From the IMG/VR virus record IMGVR_UViG_2568526086_000004, positions 1-36,154 of that record: a DNA stretch of 36,154 bases, one strand, 5' to 3'. Under the pieces are notes generated by a model. The model made no database searches and was not told the DNA's origin. It saw only the letters and a list, made by a program, of their open reading frames with translations. A program made the position numbers and the translations under genes. The stretch is from a virus (Duplodnaviria; Heunggongvirae; Uroviricota; Caudoviricetes). Of the stretch, positions 34,724-34,915 are shown piece after piece (position 1 is the first letter of the stretch; the number at the start of each line of letters is the position of its first letter).

Positions 34724-34915
34724 ATGCTTGGTAAAGTATTTTTTGTGGTTTTATCATGCTCTTTGTTATTAAGCCCACTAACTACCTATGCTAAAAATTA
34801 TCCTTGTTCTGGGAAAAAGGGTGGTGTATCTCACTGTACCTCCGATGGAAAATTTGTTTGCAATGATGGAACTATTAGTAAATCCAAAAAAATCTGTACT
34901 AAAAACTCACGATAA
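34724..34915 (+). CDS. Small secreted Cys-rich peptide (63-aa precursor), candidate cargo gene
   Basis: N-terminal signal peptide ([23 protein letters not shown]) followed by a ~40-aa Lys-rich mature region with four Cys. AT-rich. Inserted between cI and int. Confidence 0.55.

What the first reader, a model, noticed from the sequence alone, without database searches (positions are those of the whole stretch)
34724..34915. Small secreted Cys-rich peptide gene inserted between cI and int
In 186-type phages cI and int are adjacent in the lysogenic operon. Here a 63-aa ORF with a signal peptide and a 4-Cys, Lys-rich mature peptide sits between them in AT-rich DNA. It would be expressed in the lysogen from the cI promoter. 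It is a candidate lysogenic-conversion factor, such as a periplasmic or secreted peptide or bacteriocin-like or envelope-targeting molecule.
Basis: partly seen in the sequence, partly recalled or inferred. Interest (0 to 1): 0.45.

Follow-up and report, generated by a model that had tools for sequence, protein, structure and literature searches.

The report
Prophage copy of periplasmic YdcA mini-protein
The small gene between the repressor and integrase genes of this E. coli prophage is real and conserved, and it encodes an exported, disulfide-locked 40-residue peptide of the uncharacterised YdcA family, so it is a plausible but untested lysogen-expressed envelope factor and not a new kind of gene.

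Summary
ORF 34724-34915 (+) encodes 63 aa: a Sec-type signal peptide followed by a 40-aa mature peptide with 4 Cys and net charge about +7. It starts 15 nt after the cI stop, behind a strong ribosome-binding site.

It belongs to a recognised family. It scores above the curated NCBIfam cutoff for PRK10040.1-2, and RefSeq now labels it "YdcA family protein". About 590 of 5,426 complete E. coli genomes carry it, including E. coli B laboratory strains. It is under strong purifying selection (pN/pS about 0.07).

Divergent versions sit directly after a 186-type cI in Escherichia, Klebsiella, Enterobacter and Yersinia prophages. Haemophilus phages HP2/S2 carry one too, unannotated. The repressors are only 27-41% identical across genera while the peptide cores are 70-89% identical.

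The cI-int gap is a known minor cargo and defence hotspot. Family clues to function:
- a common fusion to secreted nucleases;
- core-chromosome paralogues such as E. coli ydcA.

The function is unproven. My best guess is a periplasmic module that binds a polyanion or an envelope machine, made in lysogens to exclude incoming DNA or phage. A stress-tolerance role is nearly as likely. A bacteriocin is unlikely.

The parts
34014..34138 (.). Divergent control region between the cox/apl-like gene and cI; presumed position of the lytic and lysogenic promoters
   Evidence: Lies between the Cox-like gene 33792..34013 (-) (phrog_575) and cI. A promoter-like site on the minus strand at 34114->34086 fits a lytic promoter. 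The lysogenic promoter is inferred by analogy with 186, HP1/HP2 and K139 and was not detected by the scan.
34139..34708 (+). cI immunity repressor (186 type)
   Evidence: Pfam Phage_CI_repr 2.7e-33 and Phage_CI_C 1e-28. PGAP: phage repressor protein CI.
34713..34719 (+). Shine-Dalgarno sequence GGGAGGA of the small ORF
   Evidence: Read from the sequence. 4 nt spacer to the ATG. Conserved as GGAGGA in MS20659.
34724..34792 (+). Signal peptide (residues 1-23), predicted signal peptidase I cleavage after T-Y-A
   Evidence: Basic n-region, 15-residue h-region with mean hydropathy 2.38, Ala at -1 at least 90% conserved. Signal peptides are only 11-38% identical between genera but keep this architecture. 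Cys12 is not conserved, so this is not a lipoprotein signal.
34793..34915 (+). Mature YdcA-family module (40 aa, C28/C38/C46/C58, net charge about +7) plus stop codon
   Evidence: NF007463 at 115.3 bits against a cutoff of 93. Invariant or near-invariant P, 4 Cys, KGG, F-x-C, DG, S-x-SK. No amino-acid change in residues 25-60 among the full-length E. coli copies compared, despite 10-11 synonymous changes. AF2 pLDDT about 87-90 over the core.
34916..35024 (+). 3' spacer specific to the 'ydcA-only' form of the cassette
   Evidence: Not shared with prophages that carry other cargo (A5). No terminator-like site on the + strand. RNA fold z = -1.76. No Rfam match.
35025..35101 (+). Conserved block upstream of int, with a promoter-like element (35049-35077) and the int ribosome-binding site; right edge of the variable cargo slot
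   Evidence: Conserved in five prophages with three different cargo states. TTGACA-17-AAAAAT matches 10 of 12 consensus positions. Similarity to phages with other cargo begins at about window 35042. Promoter function is inferred.
35102..36154 (+). Tyrosine integrase
   Evidence: Pfam Int_N 3.3e-32 and Phage_integrase 9.2e-22; phrog_1.

Best explanation
The ORF is a functional accessory gene of the prophage's lysogeny operon, and it encodes a YdcA-family mini-protein.

Chain of events, with the status of each step:
1. It is transcribed together with cI, and probably int, from the lysogenic promoter, so it is made continuously in lysogens. This is inferred from operon geometry.
2. The 63-aa precursor is exported by Sec and cut after Ala23. 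This is inferred from conserved signal-peptide features.
3. The 40-aa mature peptide is locked by two disulfides in the periplasm. This is inferred from four near-invariant Cys and from the disulfides seen in the probable homologue Dis2.
4. The strongly basic module docks onto an anionic partner at the periplasmic face of the envelope. Nucleic acid is the leading candidate, because the module is a standard N-terminal domain of secreted nucleases. An outer-membrane-anchored translocation machine is the alternative, because that is what Dis2 binds.
5. In the lysogen this most likely interferes with entry of foreign DNA or superinfecting phage. That would make it a single-gene, repressor-coupled exclusion factor analogous to the periplasmic Glo protein of phage K139. 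This last step is speculative.

My probabilities: real exported YdcA-family protein, above 0.9; co-expressed with cI in lysogens, about 0.8; exclusion of incoming DNA or phage as the biological role, about 0.3.
For: Identity and reality of the gene:
- NF007463 above the curated cutoff; phrog_6000; PGAP name 'YdcA family protein'; PF27300 on its homologues.
- pN/pS about 0.06-0.08, with every amino-acid change outside the Cys core.

Operon membership:
- 15-nt gap, strong ribosome-binding site, no + strand terminator-like site.
- The start overlaps the cI stop in HP2.
- Annotated lysogenic operons run from cI through int in 186, HP1/HP2 and K139.

Recurrence next to cI:
- Found in E. coli, Klebsiella, Enterobacter, Yersinia and Haemophilus although the repressors are only 27-41% identical across genera.
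- Peptide cores are 70-89% identical and signal peptides 11-38%.

Export: 97% of family members have signal-peptide features.

Ligand clues:
- SNase and Endonuclease_NS fusions.
- 117 of the 120 best relatives of one fusion protein keep the PF27300 + PF01223 architecture.
- Mature peptide charge +6.8; family core mean +3.
- Tandem 2-3x repeats joined by Lys/Ser linkers.
- In HP2 an exported OB-fold protein is encoded next to it.

Envelope-machine clue:
- Dis2 of the Dot/Icm T4SS matches at profile E = 1.3e-6 and is the Foldseek top hit of 350,542 chains. It sits near the outer membrane, is disulfide-pinned, and contacts DotC/DotD/DotK (PMC8486379, PMC12716638).
- A VasL fusion and a gene inside a T6SS cluster.

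Exclusion role:
- The slot holds defence genes in sister prophages: PD-Lambda-1, PDC-S20 (KAP NTPase), PDC-S21, HEC-04.
- The hotspot is described in PMC9122126 and PMC13586616.
- K139 Glo, between cI and int, is annotated 'periplasmic protein; involved in phage exclusion'.
Against: - There are no expression, localisation, binding or phenotype data for this gene.
- It has no PADLOC match.
- The family also has core-chromosome members in housekeeping neighbourhoods: E. coli ydcA next to cybB and hokB, and copies in Moraxella and in metagenomic contigs. Its basic function is therefore cellular and not intrinsically anti-phage.
- The only published phenotypes for E. coli ydcA concern organic-acid and acid stress (PMC7642389).
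- Dis2 does not line the T4SS channel, and its deletion has only subtle effects (PMC12716638).
- Phage DNA is normally shielded while crossing the periplasm (my own knowledge), which makes simple DNA capture a weak exclusion mechanism.
- Nuclease fusions could equally mean envelope anchoring rather than DNA binding.
- Phage 186, HP1 and 813R9 lack the gene, and an IS5 element disrupts it in one strain, so it is dispensable for the phage.
Confidence: 0.35

Rival explanations
1. Host-physiology conversion. The prophage supplies an extra, constitutively expressed copy of a host periplasmic protein (YdcA) that improves envelope or acid and organic-acid stress tolerance of the lysogen, with no role against phages.
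For: The mature core is 70% identical to chromosomal E. coli YdcA. The family has core-genome members in housekeeping contexts. A ydcA deletion sensitises E. coli W to 3-hydroxypropionate, and ydcA is reported as acid-induced through YdcI (PMC7642389). The ORF stays intact in the decayed prophage remnant of E. coli B derivatives and in strain M2, which fits a host benefit.
Against: The stress link rests on one study, and its authors call the involvement unclear. This idea does not explain the tight linkage to cI, the nuclease fusions, or the association with secretion systems. Most accessory genes found here in this slot in sister prophages match known or candidate defence systems.
Confidence: 0.25
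2. Dis2-like adaptor. The peptide docks on outer-membrane lipoprotein complexes of a host envelope machine (secretion system, pilus, or the Bam/Lpt/Tol-Pal machinery) and changes its activity, as an accessory subunit does. It does not bind nucleic acid.
For: Profile and fold matches to Dis2, a peripheral subunit of the T4BSS outer-membrane cap that contacts DotC/DotD/DotK (PMC8486379, PMC12716638). A YdcA+VasL fusion and a YdcA-module gene inside a T6SS cluster.
Against: No such machine is encoded with the gene in the prophage. Dis2 has two lobes and five disulfides, whereas this peptide is a single module. The commonest fusion partners are nucleases. The Dis2 homology is only moderately supported.
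Confidence: 0.15
3. Bacteriocin- or defensin-like antimicrobial peptide, released to kill competitors.
For: It is small, cationic (+7) and disulfide-stabilised.
Against: A Sec signal would deliver it only to the periplasm of a Gram-negative producer. There is no immunity gene, exporter or lysis gene beside it. A 70%-identical paralogue is chromosomal in E. coli. The module occurs as an internal domain of larger periplasmic proteins and as a structural T4SS subunit.
Confidence: 0.03
4. Periplasmic metal-binding (Zn or Cu) knuckle that uses the four Cys and His37.
For: Four near-invariant Cys and a near-invariant His. Weak fold resemblance to zinc-ribbon-like chains among low-probability Foldseek hits.
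Against: The periplasm is oxidising. In the probable homologue Dis2 the cysteines form disulfides with clear density (PMC8486379). The zinc-ribbon hits have probability 0.13 or less.
Confidence: 0.05
5. Chance ORF or decaying remnant with no function.
For: Short ORFs are frequent in AT-rich DNA: 43 ORFs of at least 30 aa occur in the last 4 kb of the window.
Against: Family E-values near 1e-33; strong purifying selection; conservation across bacterial classes; a strong ribosome-binding site.
Confidence: 0.02

Closest known systems
E. coli YdcA (chromosomal, 57 aa, between cybB/rydC and hokB)
   Same: Same family (NCBIfam PRK10040 group; Pfam PF27300). Same layout of signal peptide plus a single 4-Cys module. 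The mature core is 70% identical. Predicted periplasmic, function unknown (PMC11340327).
   Different: The prophage form falls in a separate NCBIfam equivalog (PRK10040.1-2, 115 bits, against 68 bits for PRK10040.1-1). It is mobile, sits in a lysogeny operon after cI, and is more basic. The only phenotypes known for ydcA relate to 3-HP and acid stress (PMC7642389).
[quoted passage not shown]
   Same: Signal peptide followed by the C-S-x-K-x-GG-I-x-x-C...V-C-N-x-G module. Profile E = 1.3e-6. Foldseek top hit: probability 0.80, TM 0.61, 36% identity. Small, disulfide-pinned, and located in the periplasm near the outer membrane (PMC8486379).
   Different: Dis2 has two lobes and five disulfides, is a stoichiometric subunit (13 copies) of a secretion machine, and has been described as Legionella-specific with no structural neighbours (PMC8486379, PMC12716638). 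The prophage peptide is a single free module with no T4SS nearby.
Glo of Vibrio phage K139
   Same: Encoded between cI and int in the PL lysogenic operon of a P2-related phage. It has a signal peptide and is annotated 'periplasmic protein; involved in phage exclusion'. This is the closest functional and positional precedent.
   Different: No sequence relationship: hhalign probability 1.5%, with only the signal peptides aligning. Glo is 137 aa and is not Cys-rich in the YdcA pattern.
Secreted nucleases with an N-terminal YdcA domain (PF27300 + Endonuclease_NS or SNase)
   Same: The same module, placed directly after the signal peptide.
   Different: In those proteins the module is an accessory domain of a roughly 300-aa enzyme, mostly in methanotrophs and environmental bacteria. 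Here it stands alone, with no catalytic partner in the operon.
Accessory and defence cargo of P2-like prophage hotspots (old, tin, fun; the cI-int hotspot of K139-like phages)
   Same: It occupies a described variable slot, expressed in lysogens. Sister prophages carry PD-Lambda-1, PDC-S20, PDC-S21 or HEC-04 there or next to int (PMC9122126; PMC13586616).
   Different: It has no PADLOC match. It is not swapped like typical cargo: it stays attached to cI while defence genes are inserted downstream of it.

Membership tests
YdcA family (NCBIfam PRK10040.1-2 / NF007463; Pfam PF27300) | Score above the curated whole-protein cutoff of the family model | tested here: met
   NF007463: 115.3 bits against a cutoff of 93, E = 7.7e-34, covering profile positions 1-58 of 58. 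PF27300 is precomputed on its close homologues but is absent from the local Pfam copy.
YdcA family (NCBIfam PRK10040.1-2 / NF007463; Pfam PF27300) | Four conserved cysteines with the KGG, F-x-C, DG and S-x-SK motifs in a module of about 35 residues | tested here: met
   C28, C38, C46 and C58 plus K32, G33/G34, F44, D48/G49, S52, S54 and K55 are invariant or at least 90% conserved.
YdcA family (NCBIfam PRK10040.1-2 / NF007463; Pfam PF27300) | N-terminal Sec signal peptide, giving a periplasmic product | tested here: inconclusive
   Classical n/h/c features are present and shared by 97% of family members. No dedicated predictor and no experiment was available.
Dis2-like subunits of type IVB secretion systems | Sequence and fold similarity of the Cys module | tested here: inconclusive
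   [not shown]
Dis2-like subunits of type IVB secretion systems | Two-lobe architecture with five disulfides, and encoded in a genome with a Dot/Icm system | tested here: not met
   It is a single 40-aa module with four Cys. Its context is a P2/186-type prophage, and no T4SS genes appear in the annotated equivalent region.
Phage morons (autonomous insert with its own promoter and terminator) | A dedicated promoter upstream and a terminator downstream | tested here: not met
   The scan found no promoter-like site in the 15-nt gap upstream. No + strand terminator-like site was found. Overall promoter-like counts equal the shuffle expectation. RNA fold of the 3' spacer gives z = -1.76.
Known anti-phage defence systems (PADLOC-DB 2.0) | Match to a defence-protein model | tested here: not met
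   No PADLOC family at E <= 0.01.
Periplasmic superinfection-exclusion proteins of P2-related phages (K139 Glo type) | Exported protein encoded between cI and int in the lysogenic operon | tested here: met
   Gene order and predicted export, compared with K139.
Periplasmic superinfection-exclusion proteins of P2-related phages (K139 Glo type) | Homology to Glo | tested here: not met
   hhalign probability 1.5%.
Periplasmic superinfection-exclusion proteins of P2-related phages (K139 Glo type) | Exclusion phenotype | not testable with these tools
   Requires plating assays on lysogens with and without the gene.
Class II bacteriocins / microcins | Double-glycine or dedicated leader, with adjacent immunity and export genes | tested here: not met
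   The leader is Sec-type and ends in T-Y-A. The only neighbours are cI and int.

The most novel reading that the evidence does not exclude
YdcA modules could be a widespread periplasmic mini-domain, so far unrecognised as such, that binds nucleic acid or envelope-spanning translocation machines. On this reading it is the same fold as the 'Legionella-specific' T4SS subunit Dis2. The copies hard-wired behind the cI repressor of 186/HP2-type prophages would then be a new class of single-gene, repressor-coupled factor that blocks entry of phage, conjugative or transforming DNA at the periplasmic stage.
Probability: 0.15. Interest if true: 0.65.

Novelty: new member of a known kind. Interest (0 to 1): 0.35.

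Why it matters
If the peptide does act at the envelope in lysogens, roughly one in nine sequenced E. coli strains would constitutively make a phage-encoded periplasmic factor whose role nobody has tested. That includes the BL21 and REL606 laboratory lineage. Such a factor could affect phage susceptibility, DNA uptake or stress tolerance.

The side results are useful on their own. They give a first functional handle on the orphan YdcA family through its nuclease fusions. They suggest relatives outside Legionella for the structurally solved but unexplained T4SS subunit Dis2. They also show that HP2 and S2 carry an unannotated gene in their lysogeny operon.

If the gene proves to be a stress or housekeeping-type paralogue, it is an ordinary case of a prophage carrying a host-like accessory gene.

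Tried and rejected
- The local Pfam copy gave no family for the ORF, because PF27300 is newer than that copy.
- Megablast against phage records found only the int part, so no sequenced enterobacterial phage record carries this cI + ydcA module. At protein level only Haemophilus, Moraxella, Acinetobacter and one unverified Pseudomonas record match. The Pseudomonas 'phage Y12' hit looks like chromosomal DNA.
- PADLOC found nothing for the ORF.
- phmmer of the two-repeat homologue P0080 against PDB found nothing, so the Dis2 link rests on profiles plus Foldseek.
- Homology between K139 Glo and YdcA was rejected.
- A lipoprotein reading (Cys12 after V-L-S) was rejected: the Cys is too close to the N-terminus and is not conserved.
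- A terminator or small RNA in the 3' spacer was rejected.
- The UniRef name 'Conjugal transfer protein' led to a check of plasmid contexts. The Acinetobacter and Rhizobium copies are isolated small genes, not in transfer regions. The 'ydcA' named in F-plasmid, gonococcal-island and Bacillus papers appears from their titles and abstracts to be unrelated naming; I did not read those papers.
- Nesper et al. 1999 on K139 Glo is not in the library, so the GenBank annotation was used instead.
- A second tblastn with cI added nothing.

Full report
**1. The observation**

It lies between a 186-type cI repressor (34139..34708; Phage_CI_repr and Phage_CI_C) and a tyrosine integrase (35102..36154). The cI stop and the ORF start are 15 nt apart, and GGGAGGA sits 4 nt before the ATG.

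The precursor has a basic n-region (MLGK), a 15-residue hydrophobic core (mean hydropathy 2.38) and T-Y-A at -3/-1. The predicted 40-aa mature peptide has 4 Cys, 8 Lys and 1 Arg, pI 9.6 and charge about +6.8.

GC content falls to 0.34-0.37 between 34400 and 35100. The DNA is therefore AT-rich, but the tract begins inside the 3' half of cI.

**2. It is a real gene**

- It scores 115.3 bits against NCBIfam NF007463 (PRK10040.1-2; curated cutoff 93) and E = 9e-34 against phrog_6000.
- Recent PGAP annotations call it 'YdcA family protein', and its homologues carry Pfam PF27300 'YdcA'.
- The identical protein sequence was seen on at least 1,000 contigs, the counting limit.
- The cI-ORF-int block covers at least 80% of the query in 592 of 5,426 complete E. 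coli genomes. These include E. coli B derivatives such as NEBExpress, where the ORF is intact inside a decayed prophage.
- Between the window and copies about 92% identical in DNA there are 10-11 synonymous and 2-3 non-synonymous differences (pN/pS about 0.06-0.08). Every amino-acid change lies in the signal peptide or the extreme C-terminus.
- One strain has the ORF cut by an IS5 element. Phages 186, HP1 and 813R9 lack it. It is therefore accessory to the phage life cycle.

**3. Context: a recurrent partner of cI inside a known cargo slot**

The window is a host flank (grxA-ybjM-ybjL) followed by a complete P2/186-type prophage integrated next to rcdA.

The interval between cI and int varies among relatives:

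| Phage or prophage | Between cI and int |
|---|---|
| 186 | nothing |
| 813R9 (same integration site) | 558-aa PD-Lambda-1 protein |
| Klebsiella 4LV2017 | 349-aa unknown protein |
| HP1 | orf1-orf4 |
| K139 | orf2 and glo |

The literature already lists this interval as a defence hotspot. [quoted passage not shown] Neither paper mentions YdcA.

What is new is how the YdcA-like gene behaves in that slot. Variants 62-81% identical to the window protein from E. coli (P0010), Klebsiella (P0028), Enterobacter (P0023) and Yersinia (P0033) are each the first gene after a 186-type cI. Defence-type cargo, when present, is inserted downstream of it (a KAP NTPase matching PDC-S20) or beyond int (HEC-04, PDC-S21).

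Haemophilus phages HP2 and S2 carry an intact 60-aa homologue whose ATG overlaps the cI stop. It is not annotated in either record.

Across genera the repressors are only 27-41% identical and the signal peptides 11-38%, yet the mature cores are 70-89% identical. HP1 and HP2 have 97%-identical repressors but different downstream genes, so exchange does happen.

A block of about 75 nt upstream of int is conserved whatever the cargo and contains a promoter-like element. It marks the right edge of the slot at about 35025. No + strand terminator-like site, Rfam family or unusually stable RNA structure lies between cI, the ORF and int. Co-transcription with cI is thus the expected state, as in the annotated lysogenic operons of 186, HP1/HP2 and K139. 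This is an inference and has not been shown.

**4. What the family tells us**

An exhaustive search finds 311 clusters (at 50% identity) with E <= 0.001, spanning Gamma-, Beta- and Alphaproteobacteria.

- 97% of members with a normal-length N-terminus have signal-peptide features.
- Some members sit in housekeeping neighbourhoods: E. coli ydcA between cybB and hokB, and copies in Moraxella bovoculi and in metagenomic contigs.
- Others are on phages (Moraxella Mcat phages, Acinetobacter phages) and on plasmids (Acinetobacter, Rhizobium).

The literature offers little on E. coli YdcA. It is a 57-aa predicted periplasmic protein of unknown function (PMC11340327). Its deletion sensitises E. coli W to 3-hydroxypropionate, and it is said to be acid-induced through YdcI (PMC7642389).

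Three sets of clues emerged here:

(a) Nuclease fusions.
- Among 147 representatives, the only recurrent enzyme fusions are to secreted nucleases of two unrelated folds: four Endonuclease_NS and one SNase.
- 117 of the 120 best relatives of one fusion protein keep the architecture signal peptide - YdcA - Endonuclease_NS.
- There are also tandem 2-3x repeat proteins with Lys/Ser linkers.
- In HP2 an exported OB-fold protein is encoded next to the gene.

(b) Dis2.
- Family profiles hit one solved protein, Dis2 (Lpg0823), a subunit of the Legionella Dot/Icm T4SS outer-membrane cap, at E = 1.2e-4 and 1.3e-6.
- An AlphaFold model of the mature peptide (pLDDT 80) ranks the same chain first of 350,542 by Foldseek, with probability 0.80, TM 0.61 and 36% identity, though the E-value is weak at 0.41.
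- Dis2 is described as two similar lobes pinned by five disulfides, near the outer membrane, contacting DotC, DotD and DotK. Its authors found no structural neighbours and regard it as Legionella-specific (PMC8486379, PMC12716638).

(c) Type VI secretion. One family member is fused to a VasL domain, and another lies inside a plasmid T6SS cluster next to a GIY-YIG nuclease.

**5. Mechanism**

Well supported: this is a translated, selected gene for an exported YdcA-family mini-protein, placed so that lysogens should make it together with the repressor.

Inferred: two disulfides form in the periplasm, and the basic surface docks on an anionic partner.
- Nucleic acid is the leading candidate because of the nuclease fusions.
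- An outer-membrane-anchored translocation machine is the alternative because of Dis2.

Speculative: the biological pay-off.
- I favour interference with incoming DNA or phage (about 0.3). Genes co-transcribed with prophage repressors are commonly exclusion genes (my own knowledge). This slot holds defence systems in sister prophages. K139 encodes an unrelated periplasmic exclusion protein, Glo, at the same place.
- Almost as likely (about 0.25) is a host-fitness role mirroring chromosomal ydcA, that is, envelope or organic-acid stress tolerance. The existence of core-genome paralogues points that way.
- A bacteriocin, a metal-binding knuckle or a chance ORF are all unlikely, for the reasons given under the rival explanations.

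**6. Comparison and novelty**

The gene is a member of a known but uncharacterised family, and it sits in a known hotspot, so it is not a new kind of element. I did not find the following described in the papers I searched and read:
- its systematic coupling to cI across Enterobacterales and Haemophilus prophages;
- the unannotated HP2/S2 gene;
- the YdcA-nuclease architecture as a functional clue;
- the probable relationship to Dis2.

Interest is moderate to low. The function remains unknown, and nothing here overturns expectations. It would rise if the peptide proved to be a repressor-coupled entry-exclusion factor.

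Noticed in passing
window 24372-26235 (-): Three consecutive ORFs (171, 215 and 231 aa) with no Pfam and no PADLOC match. They sit in the classical P2 defence hotspot between the portal gene (23258-24292) and the DinI/replication genes. This is a candidate uncharacterised defence or accessory system.
   Followed up: partly
window 30357-31367 (-): A 336-aa PAPS-reductase-domain protein (Pfam 1.2e-33), with PADLOC similarity to SspD, BrxP and DndC. It is wedged between the replication endonuclease and the Dam methylase (31364-32272). It may be a DNA-modification or anti-restriction module, and it is absent from some sister prophages.
   Followed up: partly
window 15126-15878 (+): A 250-aa orphan ORF on the opposite strand, inside the baseplate and tail gene block, with no Pfam or PADLOC match. 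This is the position of the known tail-region accessory hotspot of P2-like phages (PMC13586616).
   Followed up: partly
[not shown]
   Followed up: yes
window 35025-35101 (+): A conserved block of about 75 nt upstream of int with a near-consensus sigma-70-like element (TTGACA at 35049). It is present whatever cargo precedes it, which suggests int may have its own promoter in this lineage, unlike 186 where int overlaps cI.
   Followed up: partly
PDB 7MUC chain AN (Dis2, Lpg0823): The T4SS subunit Dis2, published as Legionella-specific and without structural neighbours, appears to consist of two YdcA-like modules. The YdcA family would supply relatives across Proteobacteria (PMC8486379, PMC12716638).
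   Followed up: partly
L037 (Citrobacter plasmid NZ_CP053574) 4926-5327 (+): A 133-aa protein containing a YdcA module lies inside a type VI secretion gene cluster (tssA/F/G/J/E), next to a GIY-YIG nuclease and a VasL-domain protein. A separate family member (P0101) is a direct YdcA+VasL fusion.
   Followed up: no
L034 (E. coli M2) and L040 (NEBExpress): In heavily deleted remnants of this prophage the cI-ydcA-int block is retained intact while replication, cII or structural genes are truncated or lost. This would fit a benefit of that block to the host.
   Followed up: partly
L005 (Pseudomonas 'phage Y12', OQ572413) 780-1118 (+): A 112-aa long-form YdcA protein with a C-terminal Cys/GPRGG extension lies in what looks like bacterial chromosomal sequence at the start of an UNVERIFIED phage record.
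   Followed up: no
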